IMG/VR virus record: IMGVR_UViG_2861452123_000001 | Coordinates: 13,139-77,138 of that record | DNA: 64,000 bases | Strand: one strand, 5' to 3' | From: a virus | In this document: piece by piece, positions 1,909-13,638 of the stretch | Layout: every line of letters begins with the position of its first letter | Numbering within the stretch: position 1 is the stretch's first letter | Notes under the pieces: model-generated | The model's database searches: none | Told to the model about the DNA's origin: nothing | What the model saw: the letters and a program-made list of their open reading frames with translations, nothing else | Made by a program: the position numbers and the translations under genes

Positions 1909-3132
1909 CTACGTTCCCTTCACATTCATGACCTGGCGCAGCGTCGTGACGACTTCCACTAGGGGGTCCGCATCGGCCATCACCTGGTCGATGTCCTTGT
2001 ACGCGCCGGGGATCTCATCGATCCACTCATCGCCATGCCGGTACTCGATGCCCTCCATGGCTGCCGCGAGATCGTCAGCGGTGAACAGTTCCTTCGCCTT
2101 GGTCCGGCTGAACTTCCGACCAGCACCGTGCGGGGCAGAGAACAGTCCGGCCTCGTTGCCCTTCCCCCGCACCACGTACGACTTCGTGCCCATGGAGCCG
2201 GGGATAACACCCAGCTTCCCATCGTGGGCATCGATCGCTCCCTTGCGAGTGAGCCATACCCGTTGTCCCCCAATGGTTTCCGGTACGGTGTAGTTGTGGT
2301 GGCAGTTGATCCGGTCGATCTCGACGCGCTGTGGCTGCACACCCATCCACCAGGCGAACACCTGGACGAACCGGTCCATCATCTCGGCCCGGTTCAGGAA
2401 CGCGAACCGCTGCGCCCACTCCAGATCCTTGATGTAGCGGTCGAACTCAGGCGTGCCCTCTTCGAGGAATGCCAGATCACGGTTGGGGAGCTTGTAGTTC
2501 GCGCACTTGCAGTTCTCGATCGCGTGAGGCGCGACCTGCTTCTGGAGGCAGTACTCCGTGGCCACCTTGATGTGGCGCTGTGCGATCTTGTTGCCGACGC
2601 CACGGCTACCGCTGTGCAGGAACAGCCACACGTTGTCGTCGGCGTCCACACACAGCTCGATGAAGTGGTTACCGCCGCCGAGCGAGCCGAGCTGCTCCAT
2701 CCACTTCGGCGAGTGCGACAGATCCACGTCCAGCTTCTGCTGCAACTGGATCAGCTCTTCGTGCTTCGCCTTCGTGAACGTGAACCGCTGCAGCGTCTTG
2801 TTGTAGTTGCCGGGGCTGAGCGGGATGGCCTCCTCGACCTGGCGGCGCAACGATGCGAGGTCGAGGTGTGAGATCAGATCCCACTTGAACCGCGTGGCGA
2901 CGGCGATCATGCCGCAGCCGATGTCGACGCCGACCGCAGCAGGGATCACCGCACCCCTCGTCGGGATGACGGTGCCGACCGCAGATCCCTTGCCCGAGTG
3001 AGCATCCGGCATCAGTGCGACGTGCGGGTAGACGAACGGCATGCTCGCTGTTTCCTTCGCCTGCTCCACCGTGTTGTGGTCGATCATGCTGGCGAAGTTG
3101 ACGAGCTTCGGCGCGAGAGTTGTGGCGCTCAC
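1909..3132 (-). CDS. rtcB: RtcB RNA ligase
   Basis: MPDAHSG, GVDIGCGM, QLGSLGGGNHFIE, LHSGSRG, HHNY, RKGA, PGSMG, HGAGR, DEIPGAYK motifs. Confidence 0.97.
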   Translation of the reverse strand: MSATTLAPKLVNFASMIDHNTVEQAKETASMPFVYPHVALMPDAHSGKGSAVGTVIPTRGAVIPAAVGVDIGCGMIAVATRFKWDLISHLDLASLRRQVEEAIPLSPGNYNKTLQRFTFTKAKHEELIQLQQKLDVDLSHSPKWMEQLGSLGGGNHFIELCVDADDNVWLFLHSGSRGVGNKIAQRHIKVATEYCLQKQVAPHAIENCKCANYKLPNRDLAFLEEGTPEFDRYIKDLEWAQRFAFLNRAEMMDRFVQVFAWWMGVQPQRVEIDRINCHHNYTVPETIGGQRVWLTRKGAIDAHDGKLGVIPGSMGTKSYVVRGKGNEAGLFSAPHGAGRKFSRTKAKELFTADDLAAAMEGIEYRHGDEWIDEIPGAYKDIDQVMADADPLVEVVTTLRQVMNVKGT

Positions 3133-3500
3133 CGGACATCCCATTCCTTGGAATGCGCCTTGATGGCGTCCACGCATGCCCGCTTGCCGTCGATCAGGTA
3201 CGAGCTGACCCCCGACTGCCACTCGTAGCCCGTGAGGCCACGGATGTAGGCGATGGCGTCAGCCGTCGACAGGGGCTGCCCCCAGTCGCCGTCGGAACGG
3301 AAGTCCTCAAACGGCGACGGGCATGAACAACCGCTGTCCTCGCCGATCCGGTACGCCTTGCGCTTGGTGTCGTACAGGACGACGAGGGTGTCGAAGCTGT
3401 AGCAGGGTTCGGACTTCTCGAACTCGAAGACGAACTCCAGGTGCTCCAGGCCGTCGTGATACGACAGCCAATACGGGCGCTCGTACGTCTCGGCGCTCAC
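3129..3500 (-). CDS. Hypothetical protein (DSGCSCPSPFED family of actinophages)
   Basis: GTGA-coupled ORF; Cys motif. Confidence 0.7.
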   Translation of the reverse strand: MSAETYERPYWLSYHDGLEHLEFVFEFEKSEPCYSFDTLVVLYDTKRKAYRIGEDSGCSCPSPFEDFRSDGDWGQPLSTADAIAYIRGLTGYEWQSGVSSYLIDGKRACVDAIKAHSKEWDVR

Positions 3501-3700
3501 AGGGCGGCGTCCACTTCGACCATCGCCTGGACGATGTTGTCGCGGTACTGCTCCAGCTGAGCGCGGGACAGCTCCACGTACGTGTACTGGTTGCGGTTCA
3601 GTCGGACGCCGACCTCGTACGCGCCGGACGAGAGTGCTTGAACCCAAACCTCTTCGCCGTAGGAGGGACGGATGATCTTTGCGTCGTGGTGGTAGCCCAT
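3497..3700 (-). CDS. Hypothetical protein
   Basis: 67-aa coupled ORF. Confidence 0.65.
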   Translation of the reverse strand: MGYHHDAKIIRPSYGEEVWVQALSSGAYEVGVRLNRNQYTYVELSRAQLEQYRDNIVQAMVEVDAAL

Positions 3701-5060: not shown

Positions 5061-5129
5061 TGACGCGGATGTGCTTCATATACACCACATCTAAGATGCC
5101 AGGCTTACGAACCTGGACCTTCCGCTAAG
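5061..5129 (-). ncRNA. Circularly permuted tRNA-like RNA 1 (YrlA-like topology)
   Basis: GCGGA-AGGT-[CCAGG TTCGTAAG CCTGG]-[CATC TTA GATG]-TG-[GTGT ATATGAA GCAC]-A-TCCGC. Confidence 0.7.
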
Positions 5130-7410: not shown

Positions 7411-7415
7411 TAACG

Positions 7416-7504
7416 CGGAAGGCAGAGGGCACGCTCCCCGAGCAGCCGAACTGCTACCTGGCTTTCGACACCAGTCGCCCCACTACGGGACTGCTGTACC
7501 TTCC
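7416..7504 (-). tRNA. tRNA-Ser(CGA)
   Basis: Loop GT-CGA-AA; long variable arm AGCAG/CTGCT; G73; T loop AGCGTGC. Confidence 0.8.
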
Positions 7505-8173: not shown

Positions 8174-8232
8174 AGTTTGGAGCCGGTGCTCGGCTCTTCG
8201 CCGACTAGCTAGCACGCACCGACACGTTTAAC

Positions 8233-8371
8233 GGAGCCGCTCTACCGTTGAGCCGTATACAACTGCCCGCACAAAGCCCCAACTGCTGGTACCGCGTCGG
8301 TGTAACTCTGCTCTCCCCCTGCAGAGGGAGCGGGAGGTCGCAGGGGGATTCGAACCCCCAACCACTCCTCG
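8233..8371 (-). ncRNA. Circularly permuted tRNA-like RNA 2
   Basis: GGAGT-GGTT-[GGGGG TTCGAAT CCCCC]-TGCGAC...GTTGTA-TACG-[GCTC AACGGTA GAGC]-G-GCTCC. Confidence 0.7.
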
Positions 8372-8444
8372 CTGGCCCACCAGGATTCGAACCTAGAGTC
8401 ACGCCTTAACAGGGCGTTGGTTTACCGGATTAACCGACAGGCCA
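8372..8444 (-). tRNA. tRNA-Asn(GTT)
   Basis: ACGCC-CTGTTAA-GGCGT arm; G73. Confidence 0.92.
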
Positions 8445-8848
8445 ATGGTATTGCAGTAATCACATCCGCTGCAACGCTGCCGATGTGTCCTTCCCCGATG
8501 GCAATTAGCGCACACCAGGTCGCACTTCACTGCTTCCGCTCGCATGCGGGCGAGGGAAACGATTGTGTTGCCGTCCGCTACACCGAATAGCTTCTCGGCC
8601 GGATCTCGGTGATCAAAATCCATCGCGTACGGCGGATATTCATTGCCGCAGTCGAGACACTTGCCCCCGTGCTCGGCAACCAGGGTTGCCTTGTTCTTTC
8701 GCCTAGTTCGAGCCACTGCATCAGAAGCCGATTCCTTTCGGCATACGTTGCAATGTCGGTCTTTTCGGATCACATCAACAGGACGATCACTGCGGTACTG
8801 GAACTCACTAAGTGCTTTCAATTTCCCACACTTGGGGCACGCTTTCAT
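8399..8848 (-). CDS. Free-standing HNH (homing-type) endonuclease in the tRNA operon
   Basis: CPKC...CNVC Zn motif, CLDC, MDFDHRDP, CDLVCANCH; RBS GAGGGTAGG. Confidence 0.88.
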   Translation of the reverse strand: MKACPKCGKLKALSEFQYRSDRPVDVIRKDRHCNVCRKESASDAVARTRRKNKATLVAEHGGKCLDCGNEYPPYAMDFDHRDPAEKLFGVADGNTIVSLARMRAEAVKCDLVCANCHRGRTHRQRCSGCDYCNTIGLSVNPVNQRPVKA

Positions 8849-9065
8849 GAGTTCACCTACCCTCTTATCAAGTCTGCCCCCACGGATGTCCGCAGTGGGG
8901 GATGCGGGGCAAATCGGTCGCCACTCCAGCGCCATTGCAGGCCGCGTATGCAACGGTGTGCGCCACTGTCGTTCGCGTTAGACTGCCTGCAACTAGGGCC
9001 GAACGGCGAACCGTCCAACCTCCACCACTTGCTTTTGAGGCGGGAAAGCAAGAAACCAAGTAACA

Positions 9066-9189
9066 GGCCCTGTGCTGCCTTACACCACGTCGACTCGCTC
9101 GCTGATCTGGCGGCGGCAGGCATGCGGCTGTACAGACGGCACACGATGTAAACGACGGCGGGACTTCGAAACCCGCACCAGGGCCTTTG
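9066..9189 (-). ncRNA. Circularly permuted tRNA-like RNA 3
   Basis: GGCCC-TGGT-[GCGGG TTTCGAAGT CCCGC]-CGTCG...CGACG-TG-[GTGT AAGGCA GCAC]-A-GGGCC. Confidence 0.72.
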
Positions 9190-9557
9190 TGGAGCTGCCG
9201 AGAATCGAACTCGGGTCTCATGCAGTGTTTGTCAAGCCTTCTACGTGCGTAGCGTTTGGCGACTTCTATACCGCTGCCCTCCGCGAGGCGGTTGCCGGTC
9301 TCCATTCCGGCTCTGCTCATGACTTCCGCTATTTTGCCTCTTGCGACGTGGTGCTCAATTCCTGCGAGGGTTCCCCGTATTTCGGCAGTGGATTGGCACA
9401 CGGAACGGGTGAACCGTTGTGCCCCACTGGACTAAGCCGCTGCGGCGTAGTCGGACGCGGTGAAAGCTGCGTTTATTGGGTTTGCACTGTTACGGGACGT
9501 TGCTTCCCGGCACGCTTCTCAAGACATACAAGCTCATGATCGAAACCTGTCAGCCCC
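9190..9557 (-). ncRNA. ssrA: tmRNA, tag (A)AAFTASDYAAAA
   Basis: 5' GGGGCTGACAGGTTTCGA; 3' GTTCGATTCTCGGCAGCTCCA with G3:U70; AATAAAC-GCA resume site; tag ORF 9470-9432. Confidence 0.95.
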
Positions 9558-9675
9558 AAAGGTATTGCTATGTAGTTGTCAAAGTCCCAATTGAAAGTGC
9601 TCAACCGGATTTTTGTTTGGGGGGGATTTTGAAACCAAAAGCCTTTTACCCAAACCGAAATCGCGGTTTACTGCG

Positions 9676-9748
9676 CGTAACCGGCACGATTCGAACGTGC
9701 ATCCACCCGCTTTGGAGGCGGGGACTCTACCAATTAAGCTACGTTCAC
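9676..9748 (-). tRNA. tRNA-Trp(CCA)
   Basis: CCCGC-CTCCAAA-GCGGG arm; G73. Confidence 0.92.
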
Positions 9749-9749
9749 A

Positions 9750-9784
9750 TGGTGGCCCACCGAGGCTTCGACTCCCGGTGGGCC
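9750..9784 (-). ncRNA. 35-nt acceptor/T-arm minihelix with ACCA end
   Basis: GGCCCAC-CGGG-AGTCGAAG-CC-T-CG-GTGGGCC-A-CCA. Confidence 0.55.
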
Positions 9785-9857
9785 AAGAGCCTGCCTCGCC
9801 ATTGATGGAAGGCTCTTACCTGTACCGCTGTGAGGCATTCGGTGCCTGACATGTATG

Positions 9858-9889
9858 AGATTAGAGGGTCGTGAAGAGGGATTACAGGG
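9858..9889 (-). promoter_or_regulatory. Phage-type promoter of the tRNA operon (CCCTGTAATC-N16-TAATCT)
   Basis: Motif 9889-9880; -10-like hexamer 9863-9858; directly after a terminator. Confidence 0.7.
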
Positions 9890-9890
9890 A

Positions 9891-9936
9891 AACGAAAAGG
9901 CCCCCTGACCGGCGTTGTCGCCAGCCTGGGGGCCTT
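9891..9936 (-). terminator. Intrinsic terminator upstream of the tRNA operon
   Basis: AAGGCCCCC...GGGGGCCTTTTCGTTT. Confidence 0.8.
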
Positions 9937-9956
9937 GGCCCGAAGCTCTCAGAAGG

Positions 9957-10142
9957 TCAGTTCTGTGGCGTGGGGAAGGAGTGGGCTGGGGCGGTGCCGG
10001 TGCCGTCGATTCGCTGATTCAGCTGGGCCAGCGTGAAGTCAGCGTGCGGGCCTGCGCCGACGAGCGGCTTGACGATGGCGGCGAGGGCGTCCTCGGCTGC
10101 CTGAGATCCGGTGAGGTTGTAGCTAGCGGGATCGAGTGCCAT
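9957..10142 (-). CDS. Hypothetical protein
   Basis: AAAGGA RBS; 61 aa. Confidence 0.7.
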   Translation of the reverse strand: MALDPASYNLTGSQAAEDALAAIVKPLVGAGPHADFTLAQLNQRIDGTGTAPAHSFPTPQN

Positions 10143-10206
10143 GGGTGTCCTTTGGTCTGAATGGTGTGCTGCGCAGCACCATCAGGTGGCGCGGGCTTCT
10201 ACAACC

Positions 10207-11202: not shown

Positions 11203-11540
11203 CAGTCCCTTACGCGAACGTCGAAGCAGTTGGATGCGATGGGCTCGACGGAAACCGCGCGGCTAGCGCTGACACTCAGCACGCCGTCCTTCATGCGGAC
11301 GCCGACCTCGTCGTAGCTGTACTTCGAGGGTTCGCCGGTCGCGGAGAAGTACACGGTCTGGTACCCACGCTCGCTGGGAATGTACAGCTTGTTCTTCCAA
11401 TCGCCGTACCAGATGTGCGTCGGCTCCACGGTTTCCAAGTGTTCGGCGAGACGATGCTCCGCGGTCGCGGCGCGGTGACGCTCCCTGGCTAGCTCTTCGC
11501 GTGCCCACCGGGGCAGCTTCTCTTCACGGGGATCGCTCAC
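11202..11540 (-). CDS. Hypothetical protein (KLPRWA family of actinophages)
   Basis: GTGA-coupled ORF. Confidence 0.7.
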   Translation of the reverse strand: MSDPREEKLPRWAREELARERHRAATAEHRLAEHLETVEPTHIWYGDWKNKLYIPSERGYQTVYFSATGEPSKYSYDEVGVRMKDGVLSVSASRAVSVEPIASNCFDVRVRD

Positions 11541-12322
11541 GCTGCATCCTTTCGTATCACCAGCATGGTGTTGCGGTCGAGTGTCGTTGCGTCCATGTCC
11601 ATCCCGATGATCTGGGTTACATGCGCCGGTCCTGTGTACAGGCTGTTGTACCGGTTGTGATAGTGCCCGTGGAACAGGACGGCCGGACGGACAACGTCGA
11701 CCACCTTCTGCAGCTGCTTGCGGTTGACGGTGGACGCCTCGATCTCCGAGAGTGGCCACCCGCTACGGGCGGCGTCGAGCTTGTCGTCGGCATGGATGCC
11801 AGGAATGGCAACGCCGTATGGGCAGTCGTGGGTGACCATCACATCGACGTGACTGCCGTCTCCGATGGCACGTGCTACGTCGGCGTCGGAGATGTGTTCC
11901 CCGTCCCACCAAGACTTACCAGGGGTACGCTGCAGTCGGTCCACGGAGTGCGCACCACCGAGTGACATCCAGGTCTGGCCCCACCATTCCCAGCGGTGAC
12001 CGCGTGGCATGTGAATGATGTTGGGGTAGTTGGGGGCTGACCATGGCTGGTGATCGAAGGCGTCGACCCACTCTTCGAGGTCGTCGTGGTTCTCATGGTT
12101 GCCGTCGACCCAGTGCAGGGTGACGCCGCACTCCTGAAGGTTCTCCTGCAGGAACCGCAAGTACTTCCACGTGTCGCGGTCGAGGACACTCCACCAGCCG
12201 AAGTCGCCGACGTGAATGATGGTGTCGGCACCCGACTTGCGGGCGTGATGGATGACCTTCTGGCCCCATGCGCCGTTGCCATGCCAGTCGCCTGCGACGA
12301 GGATCTTGGTGGGTTCGTTCAT
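11537..12322 (-). CDS. Calcineurin-like metallophosphoesterase
   Basis: GDWHG, VGDFG, VDGNHENH, VTHD, FHGHYH. Confidence 0.93.
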   Translation of the reverse strand: MNEPTKILVAGDWHGNGAWGQKVIHHARKSGADTIIHVGDFGWWSVLDRDTWKYLRFLQENLQECGVTLHWVDGNHENHDDLEEWVDAFDHQPWSAPNYPNIIHMPRGHRWEWWGQTWMSLGGAHSVDRLQRTPGKSWWDGEHISDADVARAIGDGSHVDVMVTHDCPYGVAIPGIHADDKLDAARSGWPLSEIEASTVNRKQLQKVVDVVRPAVLFHGHYHNRYNSLYTGPAHVTQIIGMDMDATTLDRNTMLVIRKDAA

Positions 12323-12477
12323 CGGTTGACCACCATGACGTTGCGCCACTCCTCGGCCTTGCAGCCCATGCAGGTGCGCTTCTGGCACACCTGATCGCCG
12401 TTGTTGAACGCCTCGCCCCACGCGGTGTACATGTGGAAGCCGTGGAGGCTGCAGAGGTCTATTGCGCCAAGGCTCAC
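12319..12477 (-). CDS. Small Cys/His-rich protein
   Basis: Coupled ORF with C...H...CxxC pattern. Confidence 0.55.
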   Translation of the reverse strand: MSLGAIDLCSLHGFHMYTAWGEAFNNGDQVCQKRTCMGCKAEEWRNVMVVNR

Positions 12478-13041: not shown

Positions 13042-13638
13042 CTACGCCCATGAGCGAACCTCGGCTTCGAACGCGGGGTTGCATAGGGCCGCAGGCGACC
13101 GCTTATCGCGGAGTAGCGACACGATGAAGTCGCCGTCGATTGGGTCAGCGCCGGGGAGTTCCTGGCCCTGCCATTCGAGATAGAGCGCCTTGGCTGCGAC
13201 GAGGGACGACCGGTTGAGTCCAGCCTGGCAGTGCACCAGGACGGGGCCGGACTCGCGGCAGAGGTTGACCCAGCGAGCGAGCGCGTCGACTTGCTCGTAG
13301 CCCTGGTCCTCGGCGTCGTACATCTGCACGTACGTCTCGGACAGCACGTCATGGTTGATCGTGTACCGCTCCCACGGGTACAGCGACACCAGATGCTTGA
13401 TGTGCTTCGGGAGCACCAGGCCGGTTTCGCAGCCGCCCTGCCACAGGTTGTGTCCGATCTCGGAGATGTACGGCATGTCGAATGGCGTCCACCCATGGCG
13501 AGCCACGCCGCTGAGGCGCTGTGTCTGCGGGTCGGTGGTGATGTCGATGGCGGTGTGGTCGCCGTTGGACGCACGCCACTCGCGAGTAGTCGTTGGGTCG
13601 GTCACGACGAGGGTGATGTCCTCGGTGCGGAGCGCCAT
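13042..13638 (-). CDS. Dual-specificity (CX5R) phosphatase
   Basis: LVHCQAGLNRSSLV P-loop. Confidence 0.9.
   Translation of the reverse strand: MALRTEDITLVVTDPTTTREWRASNGDHTAIDITTDPQTQRLSGVARHGWTPFDMPYISEIGHNLWQGGCETGLVLPKHIKHLVSLYPWERYTINHDVLSETYVQMYDAEDQGYEQVDALARWVNLCRESGPVLVHCQAGLNRSSLVAAKALYLEWQGQELPGADPIDGDFIVSLLRDKRSPAALCNPAFEAEVRSWA

What the first reader, a model, noticed from the sequence alone, without database searches (positions are those of the whole stretch)
9066..9189. Permuted tRNA mimic directly downstream of tmRNA
After the tmRNA discriminator: CAAA, GGCCC, TGGT, T arm GCGGG/CCCGC, acceptor helix CGTCG/CGACG capped by a ~60-nt insert, TG, D arm GTGT-AAGGCA-GCAC, A, GGGCC. 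The D arm matches that of element 5061-5129 (TG-GTGT...GCAC-A). A second GGCCCT at 8995-9000 could compete for the closing strand, which might allow a conformational switch.
Basis: partly seen in the sequence, partly recalled or inferred. Interest (0 to 1): 0.82.

Follow-up and report, generated by a model that had tools for sequence, protein, structure and literature searches.

The report
Back-to-front tRNA look-alike after tmRNA
Right after a prophage's tmRNA gene lies a conserved RNA folded like a tRNA with swapped halves, a sealed acceptor end and no anticodon; it resembles the tRNA-like part of bacterial Y RNAs but has no Ro60 partner gene, and its job is unknown.

Summary
On the minus strand, 9185-9066 reads closing helix GGCCC/GGGCC, a 4-nt variable region, a T arm, an acceptor-like helix sealed by a 54-nt two-hairpin cap, then a D arm. 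It starts 4 nt after the tmRNA discriminator.

Within one sequence the pattern is only weakly above chance. The evidence comes from comparison. Six related mycobacteriophages and prophages carry the same layout at the same place. RNAalifold recovers the permuted cloverleaf unaided, and 18 of 35 pairs show compensatory changes.

The architecture matches the tRNA-like domain of YrlA (Rfam RF02553). A model built from sibling phage copies finds genuine YrlA genes beside Ro60/Rsr genes. This element, however, lacks the Ro-binding motif, lies far below Rfam's threshold, and neither host nor phages encode Ro60. An RtcB RNA ligase gene lies about 6 kb downstream.

At least two sibling copies sit after tRNA-Asn and tRNA-Val in this window. 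The proposed GGCCCT conformational switch has no comparative support.

My reading is a Ro60-independent YrlA-class tRNA mimic, released from the tRNA/tmRNA transcript. Its function is only inferred.

This scan has already reported the same family on other DNA, including a sibling copy in this window.

The parts
9187..9557 (-). tmRNA gene. The discriminator is A at 9190. The DNA encodes CAA (9189-9187) where CCA would stand, followed by a 1-nt linker (9186).
   Evidence: ARAGORN gives tag AAFTASDYAAAA*. Rfam RF00023 scores 90.5 bits against a gathering score of 47. Sequence read.
9066..9185 (-). The whole permuted tRNA-like module: closing helix, variable region, T arm, capped acceptor-like arm, D arm.
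   Evidence: Read. Consensus fold of 7 homologues. Pair counts. Model R2, built without this sequence, matches 9062-9185 full length at 31 bits, E 9e-8.
9181..9185 (-). 5' strand of the closing helix (GGCCC), equivalent to tRNA anticodon-stem positions 39-43. It pairs with 9070-9066.
   Evidence: Helix 1 is 100% paired. Nanosmite has AGCCC/GGGCU. Siblings have GAGGA/UCCUC, GCGGA/UCCGC and GCGGG/CCCGC.
9177..9180 (-). Variable region UGGU. Its last U can form the Levitt pair with A15 of the D loop.
   Evidence: A15:U48 occurs in the GUGU-type copies and G15:C48 in the GCUC-type copies, with Nanosmite as one exception.
9158..9176 (-). T arm: GCGGG / UUUCGAAGU / CCCGC. It has 5 base pairs, plus a U.U level around a canonical 7-nt UUCGAAG loop.
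   Evidence: Helix 2 is 100% paired, and 3 of 5 pairs have compensatory changes: GCAGG/CCUGC, CUGGG/CCCAG, CCGGG/CCCGG.
9088..9157 (-). Acceptor-like arm. CGUCG (9157-9153) pairs with CGACG (9092-9088). It is extended by U.U (9152/9093), U.G (9151/9094) and U-A (9150/9095). It is sealed by a 54-nt cap (9149-9096), so there is no free acceptor end.
   Evidence: Helix 3 has 7 pairs, 98% paired, 4 with compensatory changes.
9120..9144 (-). Cap hairpin 1. Its apex holds the self-complementary sequence CUGUACAG (9135-9128).
   Evidence: Helix 5. The apex reads CUGCAG in Rey, Reindeer and Nanosmite, and GUGCAC in Bongo, SlimJimmy and prophi86-1. All are palindromic.
9096..9117 (-). Cap hairpin 2. 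Coordinates are approximate in this copy.
   Evidence: Helix 6 is 95% paired, with 3 compensatory pairs. It is clearest in Nanosmite, prophi86-1 and Bongo.
9071..9087 (-). UG connector (positions 8-9), D arm GUGU / AAGGCA / GCAC, then A26.
   Evidence: Helix 7 is 93% paired, with 2 compensatory pairs. Rey has GCUC/GAGC. The same D arm occurs in the copy at 5125-5065.
9066..9070 (-). 3' strand of the closing helix (GGGCC), equivalent to tRNA positions 27-31.
9061..9065 (-). Single-stranded tail UGUUA. A GUUA or GUAA tail follows the closing helix in most copies.
   Evidence: Tails listed: GUUAC, GUUAA, GUUAG, GUUAU, GUAAA. Not explained.

Best explanation
The stretch encodes a non-decoding RNA domain that folds into the L-shape of a class I tRNA but is wired back to front. 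Its 5' and 3' ends form the helix that corresponds to the anticodon stem. The acceptor arm is sealed by a two-hairpin cap, and there is no anticodon loop. It is a Ro60-independent member of the YrlA (Y RNA-like) design of tRNA mimic. It is one of at least three such modules in this prophage's tRNA/tmRNA array. What is shown: the fold, its conservation, its kinship with YrlA, and its fixed position just downstream of a tRNA or tmRNA 3' end. What is inferred: it is transcribed with tRNA-Trp, tmRNA and tRNA-Asn as one minus-strand precursor; its 5' end is made by the cut that matures the tmRNA 3' end; and the released RNA works by mimicry, offering a tRNA elbow and core to a tRNA-recognising protein without being charged or read. 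My preferred partner is the phage's RNA-repair or tRNA-maintenance machinery, with RtcB encoded about 6 kb downstream. This follows the published proposal that YrlA and b7a-tRNA assist RtcB. My odds: fold and class about 0.9; released trans-acting mimic about 0.55; RtcB-linked role about 0.3.
For: Fold: RNAalifold on 7 homologues gives the permuted cloverleaf unaided, with 18 of 35 pairs compensatory. 95.5% of cells are paired, against 82% in shuffles and at most 48.5% when slid. The tRNA tertiary bases are present: U8, A14, covarying R15:Y48, G18G19, U54-A58, C56.
Class: Rfam's YrlA consensus has the same order of arms. Model R1, built only from four phage modules located after tRNA-Asn, ranks real YrlA genes beside TROVE/Rsr genes as its best non-self hits, at 39-55 bits. 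A pooled alignment of phage modules and real YrlA is 98% paired, with 17 of 21 pairs compensatory. R2 finds ET08 YrlA upstream of its Ro gene.
Placement: all 14 strict hits lie within about 4 nt of a tRNA or tmRNA 3' end.
One transcription unit: no terminator-like or promoter-like site lies on the minus strand in 8200-10200.
Not a recent tRNA copy: no co-resident tRNA is more than 66% identical to either half.
RtcB: window 1909-3222 on the minus strand, E 2e-111. RtcB is also present in Rey, Bongo and prophiT49-2.
Literature: M. smegmatis YrlA is cut by RNase P and receives CCA (PMC4201824). YrlA and b7a-tRNA have been proposed to contribute to RtcB ligation (bioRxiv 10.1101/312249).
Against: There are no expression, end-mapping or binding data. 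The after-tmRNA module is missing in Estes and MrMagoo and is unrecognisable in Aziz, so it is dispensable in some relatives. EniyanLRS has a module but no RtcB, so the RtcB link is not strict. RtcB is about 6 kb away, not adjacent. The D stem here (GUGU/GCAC) departs from the GCUC/GAGC stem that is conserved in YrlA and proposed there as a factor-binding site. Covariance-model scores are not diagnostic, because junctions between two ordinary tRNA genes score 32-45 bits, above this element's 31 bits. Only 7 sequences of this subtype were compared, several of them closely related, and only the Nanosmite change tests the closing helix within the subtype.
Confidence: 0.6

Rival explanations
1. 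It is a cis-acting punctuation or processing element. A compact tRNA-shaped fold placed directly after the discriminator would define or protect the 3' end of tmRNA (and of tRNA-Asn and tRNA-Val). It might do this by forcing an endonucleolytic cut or by blocking 3' exonucleases. It would have no function once released.
For: All 14 strict hits start within about 4 nt of a tRNA or tmRNA 3' end. Several upstream genes lack an encoded CCA. The window's tmRNA has CAA and prophiT49-2 has CGA, so they need endonucleolytic trimming and CCA addition. No terminator lies nearby.
Against: Estes and MrMagoo keep the tmRNA but lack the module. In Rey and Bongo the tmRNA has an encoded CCA yet the module is present. 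A simple hairpin would be enough to block exonucleases, yet the full set of tRNA tertiary contacts and the Levitt-pair covariation are conserved. The same fold works in trans as YrlA, away from any tRNA.
Confidence: 0.15
2. It is a true permuted or split tRNA gene. The cap would be removed by RNase P and 3' trimming with CCA addition. The open anticodon side would either be joined by the phage RtcB or left open, giving a chargeable two-piece or re-circularised tRNA.
For: RtcB is encoded in the same prophage. M. smegmatis YrlA is cut by RNase P and receives CCA in vivo (PMC4201824). The acceptor-like helix here has 7 pairs plus a U.U level, and opens into a junction.
Against: There is no anticodon loop. 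The linker plus tail do not give a consistent 7-nt loop with U33 across copies. The acceptor cap ranges from about 5 pairs closed by a very small loop (5125-5065) to a 9-bp continuous hairpin (Eniyan), and neither is compatible with a free acceptor end. RNase Z and RNase P leave 5'-phosphate and 3'-OH ends, which is not RtcB chemistry (established enzymology). No bulge-helix-bulge motif was seen.
Confidence: 0.04
3. It is a non-functional relic. It could be the junction of two decayed tRNA genes, or debris from recombination within the tRNA array.
For: tRNA-dimer junctions mimic the arm order and score 32-45 bits with the model. tRNA arrays rich in HNH genes rearrange often. Module subtypes are swapped between prophi86-1 and prophiGD54-2 at the same site.
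Against: In a dimer junction the two acceptor strands and the two anticodon-stem strands belong to different tRNAs and need not pair. Here both helices pair perfectly and covary across phages. No flanking halves complete either tRNA, since ARAGORN and Rfam call none. No co-resident tRNA resembles either half.
Confidence: 0.03
4. It is a conformational switch. The 3' strand GGGCC would alternate between GGCCC at 9185-9181 and the second GGCCC(U) at 9000-8995.
For: The second copy exists. Bongo-type relatives have GGUCU at the homologous place, which could pair using G.U wobbles.
Against: Rey has GGACC there, which cannot pair. The bases belong to a separate hairpin with its own covariation, GGAC/GUCC against GGGU/ACCC. 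They do not change when the closing helix changes in Nanosmite.
Confidence: 0.03
5. It is a phage decoy aimed at the host Ro60/Y RNA system or at tRNA-targeting defence nucleases. A YrlA tRNA-like head without the Ro-binding handle would titrate whatever binds that head, or a tRNA-elbow-reading toxin.
For: A genome of the host's genus carries Rsr with YrlA. The module keeps the head and lacks the handle. By my own recollection, phage tRNA arrays in mycobacteriophages have been linked to evasion of tRNA-targeting defences (van den Berg et al. 2023).
Against: This prophage's own host genome has no TROVE gene. There is no anticodon loop to attract anticodon nucleases. The idea is purely inferential.
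Confidence: 0.1

Closest known systems
YrlA (Y RNA-like A; Rfam RF02553), the Ro60/Rsr-bound Y RNA of bacteria and cluster C mycobacteriophages (Chen et al. 2014, PMC4201824; Wang et al. 2018, bioRxiv 10.1101/312249)
   Same: The order of elements is identical: closing helix, variable region, T arm, loop-closed acceptor-like stem, 2-nt connector, D arm, closing helix. The same tRNA tertiary bases are present, including a covarying 15:48 pair. A model built from sibling phage modules retrieves real YrlA genes.
   Different: There is no GNCGAA(N)G Ro-binding motif and no outer 5'/3' stem, because the 5' neighbour is the tmRNA acceptor strand. Neither the host nor five related phages have a Ro60/TROVE gene. 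RF02553 gives no hit at E up to 10. The acceptor cap is a 54-nt two-hairpin domain. The D stem is GUGU/GCAC. The element sits just downstream of a tmRNA or tRNA gene inside a tRNA array.
Mycobacterium smegmatis YrlA specifically (Chen et al. 2014)
   Same: It comes from an actinobacterial setting. [quoted passage not shown]
   Different: Cleavage has not been tested here. The helix continues one pair past position 1:72 and opens into a junction rather than a small loop. M. smegmatis YrlA is bound by Rsr and lies upstream of rsr.
RtcB-associated tRNA-like RNAs: YrlA or b7a-tRNA next to Band-7 and RtcB genes (Burroughs and Aravind 2016, as summarised in bioRxiv 10.1101/312249)
   Same: A tRNA-shaped RNA occurs in a genome region with RtcB and without an obligatory Ro60. 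The MabI prophage relatives have a band-7-like gene about 1.3 kb upstream of the tmRNA.
   Different: There is no Band_7 domain in this window. RtcB is about 6 kb away, beyond the tRNA array. b7a-tRNA is described as resembling an authentic tRNA, not a permuted one. I could not read the original paper.
Circularly permuted tRNA genes of Cyanidioschyzon merolae and some green algae (own knowledge: Soma et al. 2007)
   Same: The 3' half is encoded upstream of the 5' half, and the two acceptor strands are linked by an intervening sequence.
   Different: Those genes give real tRNAs through a circular intermediate formed at a bulge-helix-bulge motif, and they have a complete anticodon loop. Here there is no anticodon loop and no such motif, the host is bacterial, and the cap is conserved as a structure.
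Two-piece (permuted) tmRNA, Rfam RF04321
   Same: It has a permuted order of T arm and acceptor strands, and it lies next to a tmRNA.
   Different: The match is only 20.9 bits against a gathering score of 47, and it spans the junction with the real tmRNA. ARAGORN makes no call. There is no tag reading frame and no alanine-identity G3.U70 pair. The D arm is a full tRNA-type arm.
DUF7873-associated one- or two-headed tRNA-mimic RNAs
   Same: They have Ro60-independent YrlA-type permuted tRNA heads and occur in phages and bacteria, some inside phage tRNA clusters.
   Different: Those heads are embedded in RNAs of about 370 nt beside a DUF7873 gene. None of the 20 ORFs I scanned between 455 and 20484, including those nearest the array, matched DUF7873. 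This module is a single head fused to a tmRNA 3' end.

Membership tests
YrlA (Rfam RF02553) | Arm order: closing helix, variable region, T arm, closed acceptor-like stem-loop, D arm, closing helix | tested here: met
   Unaided consensus fold, pair counts, and comparison with the RF02553 structure line.
YrlA (Rfam RF02553) | tRNA tertiary-contact bases, including a covarying 15:48 Levitt pair | tested here: met
   U8, A14, A15:U48, G18G19, A21, U54-A58 and C56 were read. GUGU-type copies have A15:U48 and GCUC-type copies have G15:C48. Nanosmite is one exception.
YrlA (Rfam RF02553) | Score at or above the curated gathering threshold (69 bits) | tested here: not met
   RF02553 gives no match at E up to 10 on 8840-9200. 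Sibling modules score 17-44 bits. The two real YrlA genes tested beside Rsr also scored only 43-52 bits, so the threshold is strict.
YrlA (Rfam RF02553) | GNCGAA(N0-1)G Ro-binding motif 5' of the tRNA-like domain, with 5' and 3' ends forming an outer stem | tested here: not met
   The 5' flank is the tmRNA T arm and acceptor strand followed by CAAA. The 3' flank UGUUACUUGG has no complement upstream. Real YrlA in L016 and L017 shows GGCCGAA and an outer stem.
YrlA (Rfam RF02553) | Encoded within about 4 kb of a Ro60/Rsr (TROVE) gene on the same strand | tested here: not met
   PF05731 is absent from the 100%-complete host genome and from Rey, Bongo, prophiT49-2, EniyanLRS and Nanosmite. It was found in 9 of 121 genomes of the host's family that were searched.
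YrlA (Rfam RF02553) | Bound by Rsr; modified by TruB and DusA | not testable with these tools
   This needs immunoprecipitation and modification mapping.
Canonical tRNA (RF00005) | Contiguous acceptor, D, anticodon and T arms with a 7-nt anticodon loop | tested here: not met
   There is no ARAGORN or RF00005 call on 9066-9185. The arm order is permuted and there is no anticodon loop.
Permuted tRNA gene (C. merolae type) | Leader and trailer form a bulge-helix-bulge motif, circularisation restores a 7-nt anticodon loop, and the acceptor ends are freed | tested here: not met
   The linker (1-4 nt) plus the tail do not give a consistent loop with U33 across copies. Acceptor caps vary from a few pairs closed by a tiny loop to a 54-nt domain.
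Two-piece tmRNA (RF04321) | Acceptor piece plus coding piece with a tag reading frame, scoring at or above 47 bits | tested here: not met
   A 20.9-bit partial match at 9166-9217 spans the real tmRNA's 3' end. ARAGORN reports only the one-piece tmRNA.
RtcB / Band-7 associated tRNA-like RNA (b7a-tRNA systems) | Adjacent to Band-7 and RtcB genes | tested here: inconclusive
   RtcB is in the window at 1909-3222, about 6 kb away. No Band_7 domain is on this contig stretch. A band-7-like CDS lies upstream in the MabI relatives.

The most novel reading that the evidence does not exclude
Actinophages of the Vilmaviridae (cluster M, cluster V and MabI prophages) would deploy a Ro60-independent class of YrlA-type tRNA mimics as working parts of their tRNA/tmRNA arrays. 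Each mimic would be released by the processing of its upstream tRNA. It would act as a cofactor or platform for phage RtcB-type RNA repair, or as a decoy for host factors that read the tRNA elbow. The conserved self-complementary apical loop of the cap (CUGCAG, GUGCAC, CUGUACAG) would let this subtype dimerise.
Probability: 0.25. Interest if true: 0.75.

Novelty: new variant of a known kind. Interest (0 to 1): 0.55.

Why it matters
The function of the tRNA-like head of bacterial Y RNAs is still unknown. Here the head occurs alone, without Ro60 and without the Ro-binding handle. It is repeated inside a phage tRNA/tmRNA operon that also carries RtcB. That separates the head's function from Ro60. 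It also offers a tractable system for asking what the head binds, because Bongo, PegLeg and Rey grow on M. smegmatis and can be engineered. In addition, the element is unannotated in all 19 phage records that carry this subtype. Standard tools miss it, and they also confuse it with junctions between ordinary tRNA genes. This matters for annotating phage tRNA arrays.

Tried and rejected
1. Rfam with permissive thresholds on 8840-9200 gave only a weak wcaG match (18 bits) on the hairpin downstream of the module and nothing on the module itself.

2. blastn of the window's module against 50,697 phage records found no homologue of the module part. Relatives were recognised only through the tmRNA and by structure.

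3. Model R1 missed the target even with filters off. R2 found it.

4. R2 on 151 genomes of the host's family hit 144 of them, mostly 100-125-nt junctions of adjacent tRNA genes at 42-45 bits. The model is therefore useless for a census, and I dropped the census.

5. A scan of viral contigs for the tmRNA 3'-end pattern returned 114 stretches. None had a module directly after it, but most were unrelated phages, so this says little.

6. Public sequencing runs: no RNA holder was listed, and only two metagenome runs held small shares. I did not lay reads.

7. Pope et al. 2014 on the cluster M phages is not held. Supplements of Chen et al. 2014 are not held. I could not read Burroughs and Aravind 2016 directly.

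8. The idea that the module plus the downstream hairpin is a second, two-piece tmRNA was rejected. There is no tag frame, and the RF04321 match is far below threshold.

9. The idea that RtcB recircularises the module was rejected on end chemistry and on the lack of a consistent loop.

10. DUF7873 was not seen among the 20 ORFs scanned. I did not have its accession for a whole-genome search.

Full report
WHERE THE WINDOW LIES

The window is part of contig 19 of an 8.6-Mb genome that is 100% complete. The region is a prophage related to cluster M mycobacteriophages (Rey, Bongo, PegLeg) and to MabI prophages of M. abscessus. All RNA genes lie on the minus strand. ARAGORN finds 17 tRNAs and one tmRNA at 9557-9189. 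Rfam places the tmRNA at 9557-9187 with 90.5 bits. No terminator-like or promoter-like site lies on the minus strand between 8200 and 10200. So tRNA-Trp, the tmRNA, the element and tRNA-Asn are probably parts of one precursor. This is an inference.

THE OBSERVATION

- tmRNA discriminator A at 9190, then CAAA
- GGCCC (9185-9181) and UGGU
- T arm GCGGG / UUUCGAAGU / CCCGC
- CGUCG, a cap, then CGACG
- UG, then D arm GUGU / AAGGCA / GCAC
- A, then GGGCC (9070-9066)

By tRNA numbering the element has U8, A14, A15:U48, G18G19, A21, G53-C61, U54-A58 and C56. The contacts that hold the tRNA elbow and core together can therefore form.

A strict pattern search requiring all four helices to be perfect finds two hits in the window, this one and 5125-5065. 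Dinucleotide shuffles give a mean of 0.6 and a maximum of 2. The pattern in a single sequence is thus only weakly above chance.

COMPARATIVE EVIDENCE

The same layout follows the tmRNA in Rey, Bongo, SlimJimmy, Reindeer, Nanosmite and prophi86-1. All of these have a two-hairpin cap of about 55-60 nt. With shorter caps, it also follows the tmRNA in prophiT49-2, prophiGD54-2, EniyanLRS and Wildcat.

I aligned the seven long-cap copies with MAFFT and folded them with RNAalifold, giving no structural hint. The result was the permuted cloverleaf plus two hairpins in the cap. It has 35 pairs, and 18 of them show changes on both sides. Pair counting gives 95.5% paired cells, against 81.9% in column shuffles (0 of 500 reach the observed value) and at most 48.5% with slid partners. 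Examples:
- T stem: GCGGG/CCCGC, GCAGG/CCUGC, CUGGG/CCCAG
- Acceptor-like helix: CGUCG/CGACG, UGUGA/UCACA
- Closing helix: GGCCC/GGGCC against AGCCC/GGGCU

The caveats are that there are only seven sequences, several closely related, and that the closing helix varies little within this subtype. It varies freely across the wider family (GAGGA/UCCUC, GCGGA/UCCGC, GCGGG/CCCGC, GUGGA/UCCAC, GGAGU/GCUCC).

SIBLING COPIES

The window holds further modules:
- After tRNA-Asn (8368-8229), with an acceptor insert of about 100 nt
- After tRNA-Val (5125-5065), with a minimal cap
- A weaker candidate at 7483-7411

In the cluster M phages Rey, Estes, MrMagoo, Reindeer and Aziz a module with a textbook D arm follows tRNA-Asn. 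All 14 strict hits in the window and 14 related loci begin within about 4 nt of a tRNA or tmRNA 3' end. That is 0-3 nt after the ARAGORN ends, or 0-1 nt after the Rfam tmRNA ends where ARAGORN called no tmRNA. No strict hit lies anywhere else.

The after-tmRNA copy is absent in Estes and MrMagoo, so it can be lost. prophi86-1 and prophiGD54-2 share the flanking sequence but carry different module subtypes, so the module behaves as an exchangeable cassette.

WHAT IT IS

The arm order is that of the tRNA-like domain of YrlA (Chen et al. 2014, PMC4201824; crystal structure in bioRxiv 10.1101/312249). I located real YrlA genes by searching the host's family for TROVE domains and scanning the loci with Rfam. 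RF02553 matches 43-52 bits just upstream of Rsr genes, with a structure line identical in layout to the phage modules.

Model R1 was built only from four phage modules located after tRNA-Asn. Its best non-self hits were those real YrlA genes, at 39-55 bits. A pooled alignment of 14 sequences is 98.2% paired, with 17 of 21 pairs compensatory, though that alignment is fitted to the model. Model R2 was built without the target. It matches 9062-9185 full length at 31 bits, and it finds ET08 YrlA 190 nt upstream of its Ro gene.

WHY IT IS NOT A REGULAR YrlA

- RF02553 gives nothing on the target.
- There is no GNCGAA(N)G motif and no outer stem, because the 5' flank is the tmRNA itself.
- No TROVE gene exists in the host genome or in five related phage genomes.
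- The cap is a conserved two-hairpin domain, and the D stem differs from the YrlA consensus.

A caution about models: junctions between adjacent ordinary tRNA genes score 32-45 bits with R2 and appear in 144 of 151 genomes. Model scores alone do not identify this class. Membership rests on the mutual pairing and covariation of the two acceptor strands and the two closing strands, which a tRNA-dimer junction lacks. No co-resident tRNA resembles either half.

HOW IT MIGHT WORK

What is shown is the fold, the family and the placement. The rest is inference.

The module begins where the upstream tRNA or tmRNA ends, and several of those genes lack an encoded CCA. So the cut that matures the upstream 3' end would create the module's 5' end. 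Where a tRNA follows, as at 5065, RNase P would create its 3' end.

The released RNA would present a tRNA elbow and core with neither anticodon nor free acceptor end. This is a mimic that can bind but cannot decode.

The prophage encodes RtcB at 3222-1909 (E 2e-111), just beyond the tRNA array. Rey, Bongo and prophiT49-2 also have RtcB, while EniyanLRS and Kumao do not. The MabI relatives have a band-7-like gene upstream of the array. The literature proposes that YrlA or b7a-tRNA, found with Ro60 or Band-7 proteins next to RtcB, contribute to RNA ligation (10.1101/312249, citing Burroughs and Aravind 2016).

I therefore favour a role in phage RNA repair or tRNA maintenance (about 0.3). A pure processing role is next (0.15), then a decoy role (0.1). 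A true permuted tRNA gene, a relic and a GGCCCT switch are each unlikely, for the reasons given under the rival explanations.

PRIOR WORK IN THIS SCAN

Earlier notes of this scan describe the sibling copy at 5061-5129 with the same reading. They also describe Ro60-independent YrlA-type mimics on other DNA, including after a phage tmRNA and beside DUF7873 genes. I re-derived the fold and class independently. I did not find DUF7873 among the 20 ORFs scanned.

VERDICT

This is a real, conserved, unannotated RNA element. It is a new variant of the known YrlA design: Ro60-independent, fused to a tmRNA 3' end, and carrying an expanded cap. Its function is open.

Noticed in passing
window 8229-8368 (-), 5065-5125 (-), 7411-7483 (-): Sibling permuted tRNA-like modules. 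One lies 2 nt after the tRNA-Asn discriminator, with an acceptor insert of about 100 nt. One lies about 4 nt after the tRNA-Val discriminator, with a minimal cap. A weaker candidate has no tRNA immediately upstream. Most are followed by a GUUA tail.
   Followed up: partly
window 9022-9057 (-): A hairpin GGUUUC-UUGCUU-loop-AGCAAG-UGGUGG lies just after the module. It is conserved with covariation in Rey, Bongo, Estes and others. It gives weak matches (18-28 bits, below threshold) to the wcaG RNA motif, and short blastn hits in cyanophages S-PM2, S-CAM1 and S-RIM32. In Estes and MrMagoo it follows the tmRNA directly.
   Followed up: partly
window 9020-9027 (-): UGGUGGAG is a perfect 8-nt complement of the mature tmRNA 3' end CUCCACCA. 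Relatives keep 7 of the 8 pairs. This could be a site that binds the 3' end, or it could be coincidence.
   Followed up: no
window 9128-9135 (-); L001, L002, L004, L007, L010, L015 at the homologous cap hairpin: The apex of cap hairpin 1 is always self-complementary, although its sequence changes: CUGUACAG, CUGCAG, GUGCAC. This hints at loop-loop dimerisation.
   Followed up: no
window 1909-3222 (-) and 3129-3647 (-): An RtcB RNA ligase gene (E 2e-111) lies just beyond the tRNA array, preceded by a DUF7574 protein. A calcineurin-like phosphoesterase (11537-12421) and a dual-specificity-phosphatase-like ORF (13042-13638) lie upstream of the array.
   Followed up: partly
window about 8399-8848 (-): An ORF with CxxC pairs and a DHRD...CANCH motif, probably an HNH-type endonuclease although Pfam gives no significant hit. 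It lies between a conserved hairpin (8877-8901) and tRNA-Asn. Rey has no gene there, so it looks like an insertion.
   Followed up: partly
L001 2633-3056, L002 2637-3050, L004 2774-3151, L010 2564-2978, L011 2603-3016, L015 2645-3058: GOLLD RNA (RF02032) scores well above threshold (182-216 bits) inside the tRNA arrays of cluster M phages, downstream of the after-tRNA-Asn module. No GOLLD match occurs in this window.
   Followed up: no
window 9187-9190 (-): The prophage tmRNA gene encodes A-CAA instead of A-CCA. Relatives vary (CCA, CGA, CUA, CAG). So 3' trimming and CCA addition are needed in most of them.
   Followed up: no
L007 about 1864-1990 and L008 about 1868-1950: prophi86-1 and prophiGD54-2 share the sequence on both sides (the tmRNA end and AAACGACGCGUGGCCCCGGCUCGCG) but carry different module subtypes, one long-cap and one short-cap. 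This suggests cassette-like replacement of the module.
   Followed up: no
G000:C6:8056-8140 (-): There is a further 48.9-bit, 85-nt match of model R2 elsewhere in the host genome. It may be another module or a tRNA-dimer junction.
   Followed up: no
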